Shown piece after piece: positions 1 to 27,354 of a DNA stretch of 64,000 bases. The notes beneath the pieces are model-generated. The model was not told where the DNA came from. It searched no databases and was given only the letters and a program-made list of their open reading frames with translations. The position numbers were made by a program, and so were the translations under genes. How positions within the stretch are numbered: the stretch's first letter is position 1; every line of letters starts with the position of its first letter. This DNA is from Candidatus Hydrogenedens sp. (GTDB lineage: Bacteria; Hydrogenedentota; Hydrogenedentia; Hydrogenedentales; Hydrogenedentaceae), in the NCBI GenBank assembly GCA_049968235.1, contig JBMFRC010000008.1:1-64000 (forward strand), in the 5' to 3' direction.

Positions 1-329
1 ATTTATACCATCTAACTCGTATGACTTATTGAGAGGCTTGTATATAATTTTTCTCAAAGAAATTCAACTCATGTCATTCTATATATTTGCATATAACGAT
101 ATGTTATGTTTTACTATGTAGTAGAATCATTCTTCTTTCTGGAAACACTTTATGTTTTTTACTTGCTCAGTGGTAAAAACTCCCCTGACTCTATACTGAT
201 TCGTATTATTTTAAATACAAAAACAATTCTTACTCACTCTAATTGAAAATATTAACTACAATTATTAGTATTTATATAATTATATTAAAACATAATACTA
301 AATATCTTTATTAATTCATTAAAAATAAT

Positions 330-358
330 TTGACATCCATAATTTTTTTTGATATATT
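330..358 (+). promoter_or_regulatory. Sigma70-like promoter candidate (TTGACA-N17-TATATT) upstream of the first operon
   Basis: Direct read: ttgaca at about 330-335, a 17-nt spacer, tatatt at about 353-358, roughly 10 nt before the 369 TTG start. The region is AT-rich, so a chance match is possible. Confidence 0.4.
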
Positions 359-368
359 TATTTTATAA

Positions 369-1034
369 TTGAATACAACAATTTATATAAATAATAAACT
401 ATATAATTTATATATTAGGATGCAGACATTAATTAGTGAAGAAAATAAAAAACCAGTCGATTTAACTACATTAGAAACTTTGTTAGGTTCCGAAGCACGA
501 ACAAAAGTTTTCTTAGTCCTTTTTACAAATTTAGGACGAATGTTTTACCAGCGTCAGGTGGAAAACGCAACAAAATTACCCCTTCGTGCTGTACAGCGGG
601 AATTGGAACGACTTGCGCAAATTGGACTTATCTATCAGTGGAAAGAAGGTAATAGAACATGGTATCAAATTGACCAAAATCATCCTTTAGTCTCCATTTT
701 ACAATCTCTCGTATTAAGAGTGTGTTCTCCAATTGACCGACTTCGTACAGTCCTTAATAACAATAAATCTGTTCGCCTTGTTTTACATAACTCTGATAAG
801 AACGAAGTGATTGTGGTAACAACAAATGGGGATATTTTCCCAGAATTTATTGAAGGAATTCGTATATCTGTTATCACTACCAATGAATTTATAGAAAAGA
901 TAGAACGAAAGGATTCCGAATATATAAATTTCTTGCAGGGAGCCGTTGACCTCCTCGGAAATAGGGAAGATTTCCTATGGAGAATTATTGAAAATAACAA
1001 ATGGAATATACCGAAAGGGGAAAATGTCTTATGA
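369..1034 (+). CDS. Winged-helix DNA-binding protein, AbiEi-like N-terminal wHTH plus an uncharacterised C-terminal domain. The start is uncertain: TTG at 369, or ATG at 420 (MQTL...).
   Basis: The ORF track protein contains LPLRAVQRELERLAQIGLIYQWKEGNRTWYQI, a recognition helix followed by a G-x-(Y/W) wing as in AbiEi/COG5340-type wHTH. Its 3' end overlaps the next gene. Confidence 0.5.
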   Translation: MNTTIYINNKLYNLYIRMQTLISEENKKPVDLTTLETLLGSEARTKVFLVLFTNLGRMFYQRQVENATKLPLRAVQRELERLAQIGLIYQWKEGNRTWYQIDQNHPLVSILQSLVLRVCSPIDRLRTVLNNNKSVRLVLHNSDKNEVIVVTTNGDIFPEFIEGIRISVITTNEFIEKIERKDSEYINFLQGAVDLLGNREDFLWRIIENNKWNIPKGENVL

Positions 1035-2443
1035 GTGTTTTATATAATCGCACATCCTTGCAAATACCTGAATCATGGTGGAAATGGGCTCAGGCATCAC
1101 AGGGAATAGAGAGATATAGGTATATTGAAGACTTTTTTCATAGATTAGGCTGGAAATCTTTTGTCCCCCTTCCAGAAACAGAAGTAATTAAAAATACAGG
1201 GGTACTCCCTTTTTTATTAACAACTGAACATGGCAAAGAACTTTGCATCGTTATAGTTCCCGAACACCTACTCACATTACCCTCAAATATAAAAAATAAC
1301 CATCTGAATTTTTGTCCTCTTTCACGATTGCTATTTGAAGAATTCTCAAATGAATATTTACATCATGTTCTGATGACTGATTTCAGCAAATTTCATCTCT
1401 ATTCTATCCCCGACCAGACACTAATAATGTGGGCAGACTATCCCGCACAGTTTCAAATGGAAATGGCTCCTCTGGTATTAGAACCATGCGTGGATAAAGG
1501 TTCACTCGAAGAAATACCCCCTATACCTAAAAGTAGTCTGGCTCGTGAATTACGAGATTGGAATATTTCATGGATAAAGAAATTTCAAAAAGTTGCAGAC
1601 ATTACAGAAGAAAAATCTAACATCATCATAGACCGTTTCTTCATTCTCCATCATGTATTTTCTCATCGTATCTTCTGGAAAACCCATGAATTTTTAGAGG
1701 AACGTTTATTAGATTTGATAGATATGGCTATTACACAACAAGACCCCGGAGATATTGGCGAACATCTTATTGCTCTATTTCACGATATGTGGTTTGACTG
1801 GCGAATTGGTTGTTTCCAGATTGATACAGAAATTGACCGTGTATTATCCCGGAATGAAATCTCTGCTGAATTATTATATGAATATCCCCTTCTTTCTCCG
1901 AACAAATTTGACATCGCAGTTCTATTGGAAAGCTTTAATTATGGCGATTCTCTCGAACGGATGCGTGTCCGCATGATTCCCGAACCCAATCCCGACCGTG
2001 AGGCATATCTGCATACACAAACGAAAGAAACCATAGACCATGCACAAATAGAAGTAGACATTTCGGAAGAAGGTTACCGGGCTATCCTTTTCTGGTTCGA
2101 CCGATTAATAAAATGCTACGAATTACTGGAAGAAAAAGAAATGGCAAAATTATTCCCATCTGAAAATATAGATGACCTCTGGACATGGGGACAGAGGAAT
2201 AACAACATTCCGATGACCTTCCGAAACAAAATTCAACAAGCATGCATGCATGGCTTCCGCATATACTATCAAAATGCACGACAATTAAGAATCGCCCGTT
2301 TACTTCTTACAATTCATCTTATCCAGTTATATAGTGAATCCAAACACCCTCTGGAAAAATTTCCTTCTATGGAACACGTCTTCGTGAAAAAACCAGAACC
2401 CATCCCATCCGAACGCTCAATGCCACGAAAAATCTCAATTTAA
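1031..2443 (+). CDS. Hypothetical 470-aa protein with no recognisable family. The ATG at 1031 is preferred over the track start at 1001, because a GGGG RBS sits 8 nt upstream. It is translationally coupled to the wHTH gene by an ATGA overlap.
   Basis: Long open frame with native-like composition. The ATG overlaps the upstream stop. An R-x5-H stretch (RIFWKTH) is present but is not diagnostic. Confidence 0.5.
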   Translation: MSVLYNRTSLQIPESWWKWAQASQGIERYRYIEDFFHRLGWKSFVPLPETEVIKNTGVLPFLLTTEHGKELCIVIVPEHLLTLPSNIKNNHLNFCPLSRLLFEEFSNEYLHHVLMTDFSKFHLYSIPDQTLIMWADYPAQFQMEMAPLVLEPCVDKGSLEEIPPIPKSSLARELRDWNISWIKKFQKVADITEEKSNIIIDRFFILHHVFSHRIFWKTHEFLEERLLDLIDMAITQQDPGDIGEHLIALFHDMWFDWRIGCFQIDTEIDRVLSRNEISAELLYEYPLLSPNKFDIAVLLESFNYGDSLERMRVRMIPEPNPDREAYLHTQTKETIDHAQIEVDISEEGYRAILFWFDRLIKCYELLEEKEMAKLFPSENIDDLWTWGQRNNNIPMTFRNKIQQACMHGFRIYYQNARQLRIARLLLTIHLIQLYSESKHPLEKFPSMEHVFVKKPEPIPSERSMPRKISI

Positions 2444-2869
2444 GAAAGGTATTTATCTGTTAAACCCACGAAGACAAGAGAAGTTTTAATTAATTTATTA
2501 AATTCACACAAATCCACACTGATTGTACTAAAATTTCAACTCCTTTAAGTAATACTCAAAATAATTGTTGCTCTTATCATTGGGAAATAATTCATAAGCA
2601 AATATATTAAAAATACTTTATAAATTTACATAAAAACCATATACTTAAAAATAATTATGAATACAGAATGGAAACAGAAATTAACAAACGAAAATAAACT
2701 TAAAACAACAAGTAATTCCTGCCGAATAATCCGCAAAGACCGATTTTAAAAAAAATAAACATGAATAATTGTTTATATAAAAATTTATTTTTTATGTTCG
2801 TTTATTGTAAAATACATATCTACAATCTTAAAGAGTTGTTAACAAGGTATATTAAATCACCGGATTAAA

Positions 2870-5839
2870 ATGCCAAAACTTTTGAGAAATATCAGAAACC
2901 GATTCGCTTCCTTTTATAAAAGTTTACCCATTGTTCAACAACTTTTCATACTCGCACTCGTCCCCACTTTTATTGCACTATTTATCTCATGTTTAATCTT
3001 CTGTATTTTTGACATTGCCTTTTTAAAGAATACATTACAAACTGAATTGAAAATAACTGCACAACACTTAAATGCTCATCTCTCTGAGTTATTAAGTAAA
3101 GATGATATAACAAATGAACAAATTGAGAGCGAATTAAATATATTATTGAAAGATAATGAACGCGTTTCAATGGCATGTATCTATAATGATATGGGGAAGA
3201 TTATAGCCCGTTATTCACGGAAGAAAAACACGGCAACTTTCCCCATAAATCCTTCTCTTTCAAATTCTAAAACCGCTTACTGGAATTATTTTTGTATTTT
3301 TTATCCTATTAAAAAAAATACAGAACTGTTTTCAACAGCGAATAGAGGACAAATTTCAGAAAACATCGCTACACTATTTTTAGCCATAGATAAAAACATT
3401 TACTACCAACGGATTTTATTTTTTGGTATTGGGATATCCAGTGTCCTTATCTTCTCTTCCTTGATTGCATTTTTTGTTTCTACCAAGTTACAGCGTGCTA
3501 TTTCTCGTCCAATAGAGTATCTTTCGCGATTGGCAAAGTACATCTCCGAGGAAAAAGATTATTCTGTCCGTGCCACAAAAATCGCAACAAATGAATTGGG
3601 AATATTAATTGATGAGTTTAATGAGATGCTCCATCAGATAGAAACGAAAGAGCAATTATTGAGAGAAGCCAATAAAGATTTACAGGAAAGAATAAGCATC
3701 CGGACTAAAGAATTACAGGAAGAGATTGAAGAACATCGGCGAACATCGGAACTTTTACAAAAAGAAATTCAAGAACGGATTCGTATTGAGAACGAACTAA
3801 AAAAAGCAAAAGAACAGGCAGAATTGAAAACACAAATAAAAAGTGATTTCCTTGCAAATGTCAGTCATGAGATACGCACACCTATGACAGGTATTTTAGG
3901 GATGTCAGAAATTTTATTAGAATCGAATTTAATAGAAACTCAACGAAAGCAGGTAGAGACCATCTATCGTTCCGGACAATTCCTTTTACGACTTATTGGG
4001 GATATTCTGGATTATTCAAAAATTGAAGCAGGACATATTGAAATCGAACCCGCTCCTTTTGATTTACAAGTTGTATGCGAAGAAGTAATTGAATTGATGT
4101 CTCCATTGGCACATGGGAAAGGAATCAATCTTTACTTGCGATATGTCCCAAATTGTCCACGAAGGTTTATAGGAGATGCTGGAAGAATTCGACAAGTCCT
4201 AACAAATTTAATTGGTAATGGGATAAAGTTTACACATCAGGGTTATGTTTTAGTATCTGTAAGTTTAGATGGTATTACAGAAGATAAAGCAGCTATTTCA
4301 ATTACAGTAGAAGATACTGGAATCGGAGCACCTCAGGATAAATTAGAATCTATTTTTGAACGATACGAACAGGCCGATGCTCTCATTACAAAACAATATG
4401 GCGGTACTGGATTAGGTCTGGCAATTTGCAAACTCATTGTGGATGCAATGAAAGGTTCTATATCTGTCTATTCCCGTGAAAAAGAAGGAACTCGTTTTAC
4501 TATTTCCCTCATATTACCAATAGATAATAAACAACCGGTACCTTCTTACAGTTCTTATAAAGAATCTTTACGCGGTATCCGTGTTCTGATTGTTGACCAG
4601 AGCCCTATCAATCGCAATGTCCTTGCAGAACAACTTCAGTCATGGAACATGCAAGTAGATACAGTCGGCTCAAGTGCAGAGGCATTAAACTACTTAAAAG
4701 AAGGTATTGAAAAAGGAAGTCCTTATCAGATAGTTCTTATTGACGACCAGATGCCCGGTATACAGGGAGAATCCTTAGGTAGAACCATTAAACAAAATGA
4801 ACAGATAAAAGATACCATTCTGGTTCTTATTACTCCTTTTGGCATGAGAGGTGATGCCCACCGATTGTTTGAACTGGGATTTTCAGGCTATTTGACGCGA
4901 CCTATTCGGCAAAGCGAATTAATGGATGCTCTGGCATCTATCTGGGCAGCACACCTTAAAGGAGAACAACCTTCCATCATTACGCGTCATACCGTAATTG
5001 AACAACGACATACTCAAAAAGAACATCCATTTTTCAATGCCCAGATTCTATTGGCAGAAGACAATTTTGTTAATCAACAGGTGGCTATTGAGATACTCCG
5101 AAATATGGGCTGTGAGGTTACAATAGCAGTTGACGGACAGGAAGCAATAGAATGGTTTAAACGAAAAAAATTCGACTTATTGTTTATGGATTGTGAAATG
5201 CCCCGTATAAACGGTTTTACCGCAGCACGAGAAATAAGACAAATCGAACCTACAGGTACGCATACACCTATTATCGCACTTACTGCACATGCCCTCAGTG
5301 GGGACCGTGAACGATGCCTCTCCGCAGGAATGGATGATTACTTATCAAAACCTATTGAAACTGCAAAGGTCCTCGAAATACTAAAAAAATGGCTTGTTAA
5401 TACCAAAATAGATATGTCACAGGAATTATCATCTCCACAATCCCGTAAAATAGAATCTATGGACATTACAACATTACCGACATTCGATTTGAAGAAAGCA
5501 TTGGAAAATACAGGGGGGAAGATAAAAACTATTCAGCGTATTGCTATGGTATTTTTACAACACATACCTGCAAGAATTGAGGAAATACAAAAAACTTATG
5601 ATGAAAAGAACTATGATGAATTGCTCCGCTTGATTCATTCTTTAGCCGGTGCATCAGCCTCTATTTCAGCCAGTAAATTAACCTACATTACACAAACTAT
5701 GGAACAGGAACTTCGTGGAGGGCTTACAGATAATATCTCATCAAATATAGAAGCCATACGAAAAGAATTCGGCGAATTGAAATCCCTATTAGAACATATA
5801 CATTGGGAAGAAATTAAAATAAGCGATAACTCTCAATAA
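2870..5839 (+). CDS. Hybrid sensor histidine kinase: N-terminal TM helices, HAMP/coiled coil, HisKA, HATPase_c, two REC domains, and a C-terminal HPt domain (BarA/ArcB-like architecture)
   Basis: Motifs seen: [17 protein letters not shown] (H-box), [13 protein letters not shown] (G2 box), two receiver domains (LIDDQMPG; [14 protein letters not shown]), and an HPt-like [15 protein letters not shown]. Confidence 0.85.
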
Positions 5840-12377: not shown

Positions 12378-12677
12378 CTCCTTACAAAATCTACAATTAA
12401 TATTTAATAACTAAAAAAAAATTTTTTTATGCAGAATATCTAATTACTTTACATACTTTTAATCATTCAAGGCAAATAAACAACACACTACATTTCCAGA
12501 AAAATTACAGACTGCCAACAAAACAAATGACTAAATGTGTCCGATATCGAGAGGTTGTAAAATGATGGATTAAAAGAGGGCTTAAAAAAGGACGGACTTT
12601 CATTATACTATATTCGTATTTTCTCCGCAGGACTCTTGTTGTTTAACGCTCGTTGCTTATGGACGTAATTATATCAT

Positions 12678-12962
12678 TAAATATACTCGTTCAATTTATA
12701 CATCAATTTGTTGTAATCAGTAAAATAATGTTGTTTTAATAGTTCTGCAATTCTACCATTGAAGCGTTCGACTAATCCATTCGTTTTGGGTGTATAGGAA
12801 CGAGTCAGACGATGTTCTACACCGAGTTCCTGATAGCGATGGTCGAAGATATGTTTACCGGAGGGCTGTTTTTTACCCCGTCAGAAGCGGTCTGTAAATT
12901 CCTTGCCGTTTTCGGTCAAAACGGTACGAATTGGATAGGGATAGAGTGCACTCACTTCCTCT
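12678..12962 (-). mobile_element. Remnant of an IS transposase (integrase-core / rve DDE domain, IS481/IS3-like C-terminal part). It has an internal stop and is truncated.
   Basis: The minus strand translates to ...IRTVLTENGKEFTDRF*RGKKQPSGKHIFDHRYQELGVEHRLTRSYTPKTNGLVERFNGRIAELLKQHYF... This is the classic TDNGxEF ... HxxTxPYxPQTNGxVERFN signature, broken by a TGA. It sits in a 950-bp gap with no intact ORF. Confidence 0.6.
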
Positions 12963-13333
12963 AAAAATGCTTTTTATTTCTCTACACTCTGCTCATACTT
13001 TAGATCTAACATTGTTCGTAGTTTATGCGGTTGTAATGATTTATCTGTTAAGTCCTCTCACTTCTTTTACTTTCACATTATCTTCGTGCATATATACAAC
13101 TATTTCAAAAGTGCTTTCATAGGTTCTTTCGATTCTTTAATTACATTTTGCATTTGCAGGGTAGTCCTTGCATTTGGGTGATACTTCATTGCGGGTATAT
13201 CTTTCCCCCTCTTACTTTTCGAATATTATCCGTTTTATCCTACCTCTTATCCATAGATACTTATTAGAACATACCTTGCATCCTGTTGATATTATACATG
13301 TGGAAAATAACTTAATACTATTTCTCAAGTTCT

Positions 13334-26274: not shown

Positions 26275-26434
26275 ATAAAACTCTGCAATCAAGTAAGAGC
26301 ACTCTATAATAAAATGTGCATATAAAATTGAGAATAGCAAGTGTATTATATTTAAAGCAAAGCAAGGTTGAATCGTAGTACTTTTTTATCTTTAGATGGA
26401 TAGATACTATTTTTTACATCTTTCATTATAAATT

Positions 26435-26453
26435 TGGTAATATAAAATATTAC
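26435..26453. promoter_or_regulatory. Perfect 19-bp palindrome GGTAATAT-AAA-ATATTACC in the divergent queE / R-M-like intergenic region. It could be an operator or a hairpin.
   Basis: Read directly from the sequence. The 8-bp arms are exact reverse complements, about 45 nt upstream of the GAGG RBS at 26489. Confidence 0.4.
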
Positions 26454-26498
26454 CGAAATGTTTATGGTTTTTAACTATTCTTAATTATGAGGTTTTTT

Positions 26499-26914
26499 AT
26501 GGATAAGAAAGAATTAGGTTCAAAAACAGCTAAGGGGGGGGATTTGCCAATGAAAAAAGGATATGTGAGAAATTCAATTCCTGGGCAAAAGATAAAGAAG
26601 CGCAAGAATGGCTTCAAATAATGGGTTATAATCTTGACAAAATTAAATCTGTAAAAGCGATTCAAATACCTACCAAAATAAAAAAAGGAAATTTTAATAA
26701 ATTTTGTATAAAAGAAGATGAATATGAAGAATTTGTCAAATATAAAAAAGCAGATGCGCAAATAAAAATTTGTATAAAAGTTGGGGACATCATAAAAATC
26801 GAAAATCTATCTCTAAAAAAAGCAAATCAAGATGCTGACTACAATCAAATAGATAAAAGAACAGTTAATAATTACCAGGAAATGTGGGGATTTAGTGACG
26901 AAATATCATACTAG
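26499..26914 (+). CDS. Putative phase-variable or frameshifted ORF. The ATG at 26499 (RBS GAGG) runs into a G8 tract at about 26534-26541 and stops after 40 codons. One extra G fuses it to the frame of the 97-aa track ORF 26621..26914.
   Basis: Frame analysis from the sequence: frame 0 gives MDKKELGSKTAKGGDLPMKK...K*. Frame 2 is open from the G tract: GGFANEKRICEKFNSWAKDKEAQEWLQIMGYNLDK... The ATG at 26621 has no RBS. Confidence 0.35.
26534..26541 (+). repeat. Homopolymeric G8 tract inside the 5' end of the first ORF of the R-M-like operon (candidate slipped-strand phase-variation site)
   Basis: gctaaggggggggatttgcc read directly from the sequence. It is the only long G run noticed in an otherwise AT-rich islet. 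Confidence 0.6.
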
Positions 26915-26953
26915 CTCAAACTTTTCACAGGCGAATTAAGCCCCAAAAAAGAA

Positions 26954-27352
26954 ATGAAACAGGGGAATCTAAAAGAACTAAAAACCATAAGTTTTAGGGA
27001 TGCAAGGCGATTATTCCTTGACGAAATTCCTCCAAAAGCACAAAATAAAATTATTAACTTTTTTAAGAAGAATAGAATTAGAGTGGTGAGTGATATAATA
27101 AAAGGGAGAGGAGGACTATCAGCAAATTGGATGTTAGTAACAAAATATGATAAGAAACATGATAAAACAGCATGGATACTAAAAGATATAAATTTTGTGA
27201 TGAACTTTTTTGGAAACGGAAAGATATGCATTTCACCTAAGGGCAGTCTATATATTGGAAAAATCACAATGCAAAGAAAAGGCGGGACTCCAGATTCAAC
27301 AAAAATACAGTTTAAAATCAAACCTTGTGAGTTATTTGGCAGTGGAGAATAA
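26954..27352 (+). CDS. Hypothetical 132-aa ORF in the same frame as 26621..26914, separated from it by only a TAG codon. It ends 2 nt before the methyltransferase start. It is a possible C-terminal part of a decayed restriction endonuclease.
   Basis: Frames 26621 and 26954 are both ≡2 mod 3. The only intervening stop is the TAG at 26912-26914. The composition is very AT-rich, like the MTase gene. Confidence 0.35.
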   Translation: MKQGNLKELKTISFRDARRLFLDEIPPKAQNKIINFFKKNRIRVVSDIIKGRGGLSANWMLVTKYDKKHDKTAWILKDINFVMNFFGNGKICISPKGSLYIGKITMQRKGGTPDSTKIQFKIKPCELFGSGE

Positions 27353-27354
27353 AT

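What the first reader, a model, noticed from the sequence alone, without database searches (positions are those of the whole stretch)
330..2443. Translationally coupled AbiEi-like wHTH gene plus a 470-aa protein of unknown family behind a near-consensus sigma70 promoter: candidate uncharacterised TA/defence-like module
The first protein carries a winged helix resembling AbiEi-type antitoxins and COG5340 regulators (…RELERLAQIGLIYQWKEGNRTWYQI). In known AbiE systems this wHTH is followed by a roughly 300-aa DUF1814 nucleotidyltransferase toxin. Here the partner is 470 aa with no recognisable nucleotidyltransferase, HEPN or nuclease signature, and it starts in an ATGA overlap with the regulator stop. 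The pair is preceded by TTGACA-N17-TATATT. It sits at the window edge next to a long AT-rich non-coding stretch (1-368 and 2444-2869), which suggests accessory DNA.
Basis: partly seen in the sequence, partly recalled or inferred. Interest (0 to 1): 0.6.

Follow-up and report, generated by a model that had tools for sequence, protein, structure and literature searches.

The report
Conserved pair of dead defence-derived proteins
Two overlapping genes in an uncultured Hydrogenedentota bacterium encode a DNA-binding protein and a catalytically dead relic of a restriction-modification enzyme; the pair is inherited vertically across the phylum and probably controls its own promoter, so it is not a mobile toxin-antitoxin or defence module.

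Summary
Gene A (420-1034, 204 aa) and gene B (1031-2443, 470 aa) overlap by ATGA. They sit behind TTGACA-N17-TATATT with an extended -10 TG.

- A is not AbiEi. It is an ArsR-like winged helix fused to a nucleotidyltransferase-like fold that lacks the catalytic motifs. All 50 family members tested match PADLOC PDC-M05A.
- B is a fossil Type IIG restriction-modification enzyme. It has a nuclease-like domain without D...ExK, the helical connector, and probably half a methyltransferase fold without SAM or NPPY motifs. It has no target-recognition domain.
- Both genes are under strong purifying selection (dN/dS 0.03-0.11) and co-evolve (Mantel r = 0.83).
- B relatives occur in 115 species-representative genomes, nearly all Hydrogenedentota. 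A lies directly upstream in 74 of 86 loci.
- Synteny is conserved in the closest clade. There are no plasmid or phage copies, and base composition is ordinary.
- A 15-bp palindrome, ACTAC-N5-GTAGT, recurs upstream of A and over its start codon in 55 of 65 loci. This fits autoregulation by A.

Best reading: an exapted, non-catalytic, self-regulated DNA-binding pair. Its cellular role is unknown.

The parts
255..269 (.). Upstream operator-like palindrome ACTACAATTATTAGT (consensus ACTAC-N5-GTAGT, 1 mismatch).
   Evidence: It is the only match with <=1 mismatch in the 64-kb window. It is conserved at the same position in 10 related loci. A match with <=2 mismatches lies upstream of A in 47/68 loci, against 7.9 +/- 2.6 in shuffles.
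297..303 (+). Conserved ACTAAAT block, a possible extra half-site between the palindrome and the -35 hexamer.
   Evidence: The columns are conserved in the alignment of upstream regions from the Hydrogenedens clade. Its function is inferred only.
330..358 (+). Sigma-70-type promoter: TTGACA (330-335), 17-nt spacer, TG (350-351), TATATT (353-358).
   Evidence: scores it 11/12 with TG. The -35 hexamer, the A-rich tract upstream of it and the extended -10 are conserved across 8 species.
420..1034 (+). Gene A, 204 aa. Residues about 15-101 (nt 462-722) form an ArsR/MarR-like winged helix. Residues about 104-204 (nt 729-1031) form a nucleotidyltransferase-like fold without catalytic motifs, ending in a conserved tail VDLLGxRED..W..IE....PKG.
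   Evidence: - AF2 model pLDDT 91.6.
- PADLOC PDC-M05A 4.8e-17, and 50/50 family members hit it.
- Alignment A2.
- dN/dS 0.05-0.11.
423..437 (.). Second operator position, overlapping codons 2-6 of A. It is degenerate in this genome (CAGACATTAATTAGT, 4 mismatches, right half-site kept).
   Evidence: 39/65 loci have a match with <=2 mismatches here, against 0.4% of control coding windows. Codon choice at the site (ACT/ACA/AGT) is atypical for these genes.
1016..1034 (+). Translational coupling region: a GGGGA Shine-Dalgarno-like run inside the last codons of A, then the ATGA stop/start overlap (1031-1034).
   Evidence: Read directly from the sequence. The same 4-bp overlap appears in gene calls of relatives at 83%, 56% and 38% identity. 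A ends where B starts in most loci.
1031..1510 (+). Gene B, residues 1-160: a PD-(D/E)xK (HSDR_N / MmeI_N-like) nuclease fold with the catalytic D...ExK lost.
   Evidence: - The family profile hits N-termini of Type IIG enzymes (E 8e-10 to 1e-4).
- Those proteins carry HSDR_N/MmeI_N + Eco57I + TaqI_C.
- Alignment with them.
- No column with >=80% D/E or K between residues 47-91.
1523..1945 (+). Gene B, residues about 165-305: the helical connector domain shared with Type IIG, HsdM and PglX enzymes, ending in LESFNYG (equivalent to ILGNTYE).
2033..2395 (+). Gene B, residues about 335-455: a beta-alpha-beta-alpha-beta region, probably a relic of the first half of the gamma-class methyltransferase fold. 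Motif I is replaced by D-x-x-EEGYR; there is no motif II acid and no NPPY.
   Evidence: - The full-length hhalign runs collinearly into this region.
- The region on its own is weak (P = 0.0096, probability 4%).
- Secondary structure and column table.
This assignment is inferred, with medium confidence.
1031..2443 (+). Gene B as a whole, 470 aa.
   Evidence: AF2 pLDDT 89, pTM 0.85. 133 homologues, all 470-500 aa. dN/dS 0.03-0.08.

Best explanation
This is a vertically inherited, self-regulated two-gene operon of the candidate phylum Hydrogenedentota. It encodes two pseudoenzymes recruited from defence or toxin-antitoxin stock.

**Protein A** is an ArsR-like winged-helix DNA binder fused to a minimal-nucleotidyltransferase-like fold that has lost its catalytic residues.

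**Protein B** is a truncated, catalytically dead descendant of a Type IIG restriction-modification enzyme. It keeps the nuclease fold, the helical connector and (inferred) half of the methyltransferase fold. It has no target-recognition domain.

**Proposed mechanism.** A dimer of A binds the 15-bp palindrome ACTAC-N5-GTAGT at two sites, one near or inside the core promoter and one over its own start codon, and so sets the level of the A-B transcript. B is made in step with A through the ATGA overlap. B most likely binds A's dead nucleotidyltransferase domain or conserved tail, either tuning A's DNA binding or using A as its DNA-targeting subunit. The output is non-catalytic DNA binding or regulation, not cleavage, methylation or growth arrest.

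**Shown:** domain ancestry, loss of motifs, selection, co-inheritance, and operator conservation.
**Inferred:** that A is the protein that binds the palindrome, that A and B form a complex, and the cellular role.
For: **Ancestry of B.**
- The profile of 54 family members hits Type IIG enzymes among 1.84 billion proteins (E 8.4e-10 to 1.3e-4, N-terminal about 295 positions).
- Those hits carry HSDR_N/MmeI_N + Eco57I/N6_Mtase + TaqI_C.
- hhalign gives 98.8% probability, E 1.2e-16.

**Dead sites in B.** No conserved acid or lysine sits where Type IIG enzymes have D...ExK. There is no GxGxF, no motif II acid and no NPPY.

**Identity of A.** wHTH plus nucleotidyltransferase-like fold. PDC-M05A models match 50/50 members. 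The family alignment has no G[GS] or DxD motif.

**Real genes under constraint.** dN/dS is 0.03-0.11.

**Co-inheritance.**
- A lies directly upstream of B in 74/86 loci.
- A more distant B relative also has an A-family gene upstream.
- Mantel r = 0.83, 0/999 permutations.

**Not mobile.**
- 115 species representatives carry it, nearly all Hydrogenedentota.
- None in plasmids, phages or IMG/VR.
- menC-menA-menB lies downstream in 8/8 species of the closest clade.
- Neighbours are housekeeping genes and composition is ordinary.

**Operator.**
- The palindrome lies upstream of A in 44/65 loci and over the start codon in 39/65; 55/65 have at least one.
- Control coding windows match at 0.4%. Only about 8 other matches with <=1 mismatch occur in 670 kb.
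- Codon usage at the start-codon site points to a DNA-level constraint.
- In many clades the site sits between -35 and -10.
- Site spacing tends to whole helical turns (p about 0.02).
- Some B-only loci keep a related palindrome upstream of B.
Against: - No experiment or complex model shows that A binds the palindrome or binds B.
- In the window's own clade the upstream site lies about 60 nt upstream of -35, and the start-codon site is degenerate (4 mismatches). Regulation here may therefore differ from simple repression.
- B occurs without an adjacent A in about 7 lineages, so the partnership is not obligatory in cis.
- The methyltransferase-relic assignment of the C-terminal third is weak on its own. 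Foldseek against the PDB found nothing significant.
- Strongly conserved polar residues in B (D117, R175, D201-R202, E300, N303, R314, R323, E346-E347-G-Y-R350, Q418, R420, R423, H429) could form an unrecognised active site.
- I could not measure what fraction of all Hydrogenedentota genomes carry the pair.
Confidence: 0.6

Rival explanations
1. It is a working toxin-antitoxin or abortive-infection module. B is a toxin or effector with an unrecognised activity. A is its antitoxin and transcriptional autorepressor.
For: - The architecture is TA-like: a small wHTH gene first, a 4-bp overlap, and palindromic operators at the promoter.
- A belongs to the wHTH-nucleotidyltransferase family that PADLOC lists as candidate defence component PDC-M05A. 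A paper describes that system as a nucleotidyltransferase plus a HEPN protein, typical of TA modules (PMC12988326).
- B derives from a restriction enzyme.
Against: - All known catalytic motifs are absent from both proteins.
- B matches no PADLOC model.
- The pair appears once per locus set, is phylum-wide, and has conserved synteny and housekeeping neighbours.
- It is absent from plasmids and phages.
- B stands alone in about 7 lineages, which a toxin could not tolerate unless A is encoded elsewhere.
- dN/dS is very low and uniform, unlike fast-evolving defence genes.
Confidence: 0.15
2. B is still an enzyme. The nuclease-like or Rossmann-like scaffold has acquired a new active site from the conserved Asp, Arg, Glu and His residues. 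A is its dedicated transcription regulator.
For: - Many polar residues are invariant: D117, R175, D201, R202, E300, N303, R314, R323, G348-Y349-R350 and Q418.
- E346, E347, R420, R423 and H429 are nearly invariant.
- Purifying selection is very strong.
Against: - Several of these residues (DRL, LESFN) are also conserved in active Type IIG enzymes, where they are structural.
- D93 and D125 are not kept in the window's own clade.
- No Pfam, NCBIfam or PDB sequence match suggests an alternative enzyme class.
Confidence: 0.12
3. The palindrome is the site of some other regulator, or is a promoter element specific to the lineage. A then regulates other genes, or is only a structural partner of B.
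For: - In many clades the right half of the 'palindrome' coincides with the -10 hexamer (GTATAct), so part of the signal is the promoter itself.
- In the window's clade the site is far upstream of the promoter.
Against: - Full palindromes (0-1 mismatch) also occur away from any -10 hexamer.
- A second copy overlaps the start codon of A, with codon usage bent to fit it.
- The motif is almost absent from the other 670 kb of sampled Hydrogenedentota DNA.
- The recognition-helix region of A (RAVQRELERL...EGNRTYYQ) is nearly invariant across the phylum, matching a conserved site.
Confidence: 0.13

Closest known systems
Type IIG restriction-modification enzymes (Eco57I / MmeI / BpuSI type)
   Same: - The N-terminal PD-(D/E)xK-fold domain and the helical connector are homologous.
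- Collinearity continues into the start of the methyltransferase domain.
   Different: - B is 470 aa, against 950-1200 aa.
- The catalytic D...ExK is lost. BpuSI has PD-x15-ExK according to the abstract of PMC3185434.
- SAM motif I, the motif II acid and NPPY are absent.
- There is no TaqI_C target-recognition domain.
- B is partnered with a wHTH protein and conserved as a core gene of a phylum.
PDC-M05 / MNT-HEPN type toxin-antitoxin modules (wHTH-nucleotidyltransferase plus HEPN protein)
   Same: - A matches PDC-M05A models across the wHTH and part of the nucleotidyltransferase fold.
- The order is a two-gene operon with the wHTH-nucleotidyltransferase gene first.
   Different: - The partner is not a HEPN protein: there is no PDC-M05B hit, and its fold is Type IIG-like.
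- A's nucleotidyltransferase domain lacks G[GS] and DxD.
- The pair is chromosomal and inherited vertically.
AbiE (AbiEi wHTH antitoxin plus AbiEii DUF1814 nucleotidyltransferase toxin)
   Same: - A wHTH protein is encoded first and overlaps the second gene.
- Paired inverted repeats lie at the promoter, suggesting negative autoregulation. That AbiEi autoregulates this way rests on my own knowledge of the AbiE literature and was not checked here.
   Different: - There is no AbiEi_4 or AbiEii/DUF1814 match in Pfam or PADLOC.
- Here the nucleotidyltransferase-like fold is fused to the wHTH protein itself and is inactive.
- The partner belongs to an unrelated fold.
C-protein-controlled restriction operons (controller HTH gene overlapping the endonuclease gene, palindromic C-boxes)
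   Same: A small DNA-binding gene is translationally coupled to a restriction-enzyme-type gene, with palindromic sites upstream. This is an analogy drawn from general knowledge.
   Different: - C proteins are Xre-type HTH proteins of about 80 aa, not wHTH plus nucleotidyltransferase fold.
- Here the 'endonuclease' is dead and no methyltransferase is associated.

Membership tests
AbiE toxin-antitoxin / abortive infection | The first protein matches AbiEi (Pfam AbiEi_4 wHTH, COG5340). | tested here: not met
   There is no AbiEi hit in Pfam at E<=1 or at E<=0.1 across 50 family members. There is no AbiE model hit in PADLOC.
AbiE toxin-antitoxin / abortive infection | The second protein is a DUF1814 (AbiEii) nucleotidyltransferase of about 300 aa. 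| tested here: not met
   B has no Pfam or PADLOC hit. Its fold and profile place it with Type IIG enzymes.
PDC-M05 / MNT-HEPN module | A wHTH-nucleotidyltransferase component matches PDC-M05A. | tested here: met
PDC-M05 / MNT-HEPN module | The nucleotidyltransferase catalytic motif is present: G[GS] followed by [DE]x[DE] on the next strand. | tested here: not met
   The family alignment has no conserved Gly-Ser or acidic pair between residues 104 and 160. Strands read VRLAFL and VLVVT. Invariant residues lie elsewhere.
PDC-M05 / MNT-HEPN module | The partner is a HEPN-domain protein with an Rx4-6H motif. | tested here: not met
   - There is no PDC-M05B or HEPN hit in PADLOC or Pfam.
- An R423-x5-H429 string exists in the last long helix. 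In hhalign, however, it aligns to the methyltransferase helix after motif II.
Type IIG restriction-modification enzyme | An N-terminal PD-(D/E)xK nuclease-fold domain and helical connector are homologous to Eco57I / MmeI-type enzymes. | tested here: met
Type IIG restriction-modification enzyme | The catalytic D...(D/E)xK residues are present. | tested here: not met
   The aligned columns hold P/T/S, F/Y, V and P/G in B. No column has >=80% D/E or K in residues 47-91.
Type IIG restriction-modification enzyme | A gamma-class N6-adenine methyltransferase domain with motif I (GxGxF) and motif IV (NPPY/W). | tested here: not met
   Motif I is replaced by D-x-x-E-E-G-Y-R. There is no acidic residue at motif II and no NPPY. 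No methyltransferase Pfam hit passes threshold in 54 members.
Type IIG restriction-modification enzyme | A C-terminal target-recognition domain (TaqI_C type). | tested here: not met
   B ends at residue 470. The Type IIG relatives carry TaqI_C at residues about 750-990.
Mobile defence island / accessory element | Patchy distribution, association with mobile elements or other defence genes, and atypical composition. | tested here: not met
   - 115 species representatives carry it, nearly all from one phylum.
- No plasmid, phage or IMG/VR copies.
- Housekeeping neighbours and conserved synteny.
- GC matches the genome.
- No conserved neighbour other than A and B.

The most novel reading that the evidence does not exclude
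A whole bacterial phylum may have domesticated a restriction-modification enzyme and a toxin-antitoxin-type wHTH-nucleotidyltransferase, after both lost catalysis, into a core two-protein DNA-recognition system. For example, B could be a non-catalytic reader or sensor: of DNA state, or of phage anti-restriction proteins that mimic DNA and target restriction-modification enzymes. B would then switch the DNA binding of A. That would make it a new kind of regulatory or surveillance module built entirely from pseudoenzymes.
Probability: 0.15. Interest if true: 0.75.

Novelty: new variant of a known kind. Interest (0 to 1): 0.45.

Why it matters
Restriction-modification enzymes and toxin-antitoxin components are normally mobile, patchy and fast-evolving. 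Here descendants of both have lost every recognisable catalytic motif. They are nevertheless kept together under strong purifying selection across a candidate phylum, with a conserved pair of operators.

That makes this a clear case of defence-gene exaptation into core cell biology. It gives a first annotation to a family of roughly 130-160 'hypothetical proteins' that has no Pfam model. It also supplies a concrete, testable cis-element (ACTAC-N5-GTAGT) for a phylum with no cultured representative.

It is also a caution for defence-system annotation. PADLOC-type models (PDC-M05A) hit protein A in every member, although the locus does not behave like a defence system.

Tried and rejected
- **AbiEi/AbiEii assignment.** No hits.
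- **PDB sequence search with the B profile.** Only a designed repeat protein at E 0.68.
- **Foldseek of B against the PDB.** Nothing significant; the best E is 1.
- **AlphaFold-database fold search.** The library was not available.
- **C-terminal third of B alone against the Type IIG methyltransferase region.** Weak: P = 0.0096, probability 4%. It is kept only as an inference.
- **Conserved neighbours beyond A and B across 83 loci.** None. The third-largest cluster is antisense ORFs over B.
- **Plasmid, phage and IMG/VR searches.** All empty.
- **Contexts of distant relatives of about 440 aa.** Contigs were mostly too short. Two have no A upstream.
- **Rfam and tRNA scans of the window.** Nothing found.
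- **Compositional evidence for foreign DNA.** None.
- **Helical phasing of operator spacing.** Only suggestive: p about 0.02 at one of several periods tried.
Full report
**1. What is in the sequence**

The two ORFs exist as described. ORF A is listed from a TTG at 369, but its homologues are 204 aa and begin MQT..., which fixes the start at ATG 420; the stop is TGA 1032-1034. ORF B begins at ATG 1031, so stop and start overlap as ATGA, and it ends at 2443 (470 aa). Gene calls in relatives at 83%, 56% and 38% identity show the same 4-bp overlap.

The promoter TTGACA (330-335), N17, TATATT (353-358) is preceded by TG. It is the best-scoring site in 1-3000 (11/12). The number of promoter-like sites in this AT-rich DNA is not above chance. 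What supports this one is conservation: the -35 hexamer, the A-rich tract before it and the extended -10 are kept in eight related species while the flanks diverge.

The window comes from a Candidatus Hydrogenedens MAG. Protein A is 100% identical to a protein of GCA_049969095.1.

**2. Protein A**

- Pfam gives nothing and NCBIfam gives a weak ArsR/SmtB match.
- PADLOC matches PDC-M05A at 4.8e-17, and all 50 family members tested match it (best 1.2e-23).
- A 2026 survey describes PDC-M05 as a nucleotidyltransferase (M05A) plus a HEPN protein, an architecture typical of toxin-antitoxin modules, with no antiviral role shown yet (PMC12988326).
- The AF2 model is confident (pLDDT 91.6).
- The family alignment has no G[GS] or [DE]x[DE] motif. 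The invariant residues lie in the wHTH (RAVQRELERL...EGNRTYYQ) and in a C-terminal tail (VDLLGRREDVIWRRIE...KGKGV).

So A is a winged helix fused to a dead nucleotidyltransferase fold. No AbiEi model matches in any search.

**3. Protein B**

No Pfam, NCBIfam or PADLOC model matches the window protein or 54 relatives. It has 133 homologues of 470-500 aa, from 91% down to 30% identity. Those that carry a name are all from Hydrogenedentes or Hydrogenedens MAGs.

An exhaustive profile search of 1.84 billion representatives found the family itself, plus two further groups:
- more distant proteins of about 440-460 aa;
- proteins of 950-1220 aa whose N-terminal 300 residues match profile positions about 5-295 (E 8.4e-10 to 1.3e-4).

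In the alignment with Type IIG N-termini, the enzymes show D...(E)xK (for example DVGL...LEAKKFG). B has P/T/S, F/Y, V and P/G in those columns. Across the 54 members, no column between residues 47 and 91 is even 80% acidic or lysine.

Homology continues through the helical connector: LDRLIIIRY corresponds to IDRFFILHH, and RKFTSDILGNTYE to NKFDIAVLLESFNYG.

Beyond that point, the greedy full-length alignment stays collinear with the start of the methyltransferase domain:
- KVLDPACGSGSFLIYAFD corresponds to IEVDISEEGYRAILFWFD;
- LYGVDLD..AAEIASVNL corresponds to FRIYY..RQLRIARLLLTIHL.

The predicted beta-alpha-beta-alpha-beta pattern fits half a Rossmann fold. Taken alone, however, this region is weak (P = 0.0096), so I treat it as probable, not shown. 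Motif I, the motif II acid and NPPY are all absent, and there is no target-recognition domain. B is therefore a fossil Type IIG enzyme with every recognisable catalytic site gone.

**4. Is the pair mobile or core?**

- A scan of one genome per GTDB species found relatives of B in 115 species. The 80 loci returned are almost all labelled Hydrogenedentota. Several carry placeholder names, and one is a 'Bathyarchaeia' bin.
- A lies immediately upstream, ending where B starts, in 74 of the 86 loci then held.
- Seven loci with room upstream lack A.
- A deeper B relative (P0266) also has an A-family gene upstream (4e-46). More distant relatives of about 440 aa do not.
- Pairwise distances of A and B are correlated (Mantel r = 0.83, 0/999 permutations).
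- dN/dS is 0.05-0.11 for A and 0.03-0.08 for B.
- No other gene family is conserved next to the pair across the phylum.
- In the eight species closest to the window, menC-menA-menB lies downstream in all eight, and thiL and an NnrD-type kinase lie upstream in five. The window's own genome has a hybrid histidine kinase downstream instead, which is a local rearrangement. In a 38%-identity relative the pair follows dnaG-rpoD.
- There are no copies in 72,556 plasmids, 50,697 phage records or IMG/VR.
- GC of A (35%) and B (38%) matches the window (38%). The AT-rich flanks (21-23%) resemble other intergenic gaps (18-34%).

None of this fits a defence island.

**5. A conserved cis-element**

Aligning the upstream regions showed a palindrome, ACTACAATTATTAGT (255-269), conserved in the Hydrogenedens clade. 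Across the phylum, a match with <=2 mismatches to ACTAC-N5-GTAGT occurs within 300 nt upstream of A in 47 of 68 loci, against 7.9 +/- 2.6 in shuffles.

Its position varies by clade:
- In many GC-richer clades it lies between a TTGACA -35 and a tgTATACT -10, so it overlaps the core promoter.
- In others a perfect palindrome sits just upstream of the -35.

A second hot spot overlaps codons 2-6 of A, where ATG ACT ACA nnn nnn AGT encodes MTTxxS. There, 39 of 65 loci match with <=2 mismatches, against 0.4% of control coding windows. 28 loci have both sites and 55 have at least one. Outside these two positions only about 8 matches with <=1 mismatch occur in 670 kb of sampled loci, and the window has no other.

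At the start-codon site, Thr is ACT/ACA in 58 of 69 cases and Ser is AGT in 38 of 38. Elsewhere in A, Thr is ACC/ACG in 265 of 311 cases and Ser is AGT in 33 of 379. This test is partly circular, because the sites were chosen by matching the motif. It still argues for a DNA-level constraint.

Spacings between the two sites cluster at about 96, 107, 149 and 167 bp, near whole helical turns (Rayleigh p about 0.02, suggestive only). Three B-only loci keep a related palindrome about 44 nt upstream of B.

In the window itself the upstream site has 1 mismatch and lies about 60 nt before the -35. The start-codon site is degenerate (4 mismatches).

**6. Most likely mechanism**

A 5-N5-5 palindrome is what a winged-helix dimer would be expected to recognise; this is my own expectation, not something tested here. 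A's recognition region is nearly invariant across the phylum. I therefore infer that A autoregulates the operon from two operators, possibly with looping.

B is produced in step with A through translational coupling. A GGGGA Shine-Dalgarno-like run lies in the conserved KG(K/E)G codons at the end of A. B most probably binds A's dead nucleotidyltransferase domain or tail, by analogy with nucleotidyltransferase-partner complexes in MNT-HEPN modules (an analogy from my own knowledge, not tested). The complex would act by binding, not by catalysis. Its cellular target beyond its own promoter is unknown.

**7. Comparison and novelty**

The module works like an autoregulated toxin-antitoxin or controller-restriction operon. 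It fails the membership tests for AbiE, MNT-HEPN/PDC-M05 and Type IIG restriction-modification systems on their catalytic and partner criteria.

No paper in the held library describes it. Searches on Hydrogenedentota, and on inactivated Type IIG nuclease domains with winged helices, returned nothing relevant. One catalogue reports 179 Hydrogenedentota genomes in seven clades (PMC11406978 abstract). This gives scale to the 115 species found here, but I could not compute a true prevalence.

I class the finding as a new variant of a known kind: a TA-like or RM-derived two-gene module made of pseudoenzymes and fixed as a lineage core gene pair. Interest is moderate. It is a tidy case of exaptation with a testable operator, in an uncultured phylum and without a known phenotype.

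Noticed in passing
window 2444-5839: Downstream of B, this genome has a 426-nt AT-rich gap and then a 989-aa hybrid sensor kinase (HisKA, HATPase_c, two receiver domains, Hpt). All eight closest species have menC-menA-menB there instead, so a rearrangement breakpoint lies just after B.
   Followed up: partly
window 2706-2724 (minus strand): The only terminator-like hairpin between B and the kinase gene is on the minus strand. No plus-strand terminator was found after B by the simple scan.
   Followed up: no
window 12378-13333 and 26341-27354: Two stretches of about 1 kb have no ORF of 150 aa or more. Neither has an Rfam or tRNA match.
   Followed up: no
L048, L053, L061 (about 44 nt upstream of B): In a subclade where B has no A gene upstream (B starts MQNSASEI...), a related palindrome (ACGACAATATATAGT, ACAACAATATGTTGT) lies between a promoter-like site and B. 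This suggests that A, encoded elsewhere, still controls B.
   Followed up: partly
L056 (DATKVG010000106.1) and many loci titled 'uncultured Nitrospirales/Nitrospiraceae': The A-B pair appears in a bin labelled Bathyarchaeia archaeon and in many bins carrying Nitrospirales placeholder names. These are probably mislabelled or contaminated bins rather than real occurrences outside Hydrogenedentota.
   Followed up: no
window 1016-1030; C-terminus of A in alignment A2: The conserved C-terminal KG(K/E)G of protein A is encoded by AAAGGGGAA-type codons, which also form the Shine-Dalgarno-like sequence for B. Part of that protein conservation may therefore reflect the ribosome-binding site.
   Followed up: no
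L088, L090, L091 (distant relatives of B, about 440-470 aa): A wider family of B-like proteins (E 1e-30 to 1e-4) also lacks the nuclease triad. In L088 and L091 it stands without an A-type gene upstream; in L090 too little upstream DNA is held to tell. Their taxa are unknown. In L091 the neighbour is a metallo-beta-lactamase-fold protein that hits the Anti-Pycsar Apyc1 Pfam model.
   Followed up: partly
window 420 and orthologous start sites: Gene A has no convincing Shine-Dalgarno sequence at a normal distance in the Hydrogenedens clade (for example TTGAATGCAA). It follows a long AT-rich 5' leader of about 60 nt, which holds another conserved AACTA-like block (window 397-402).
   Followed up: no
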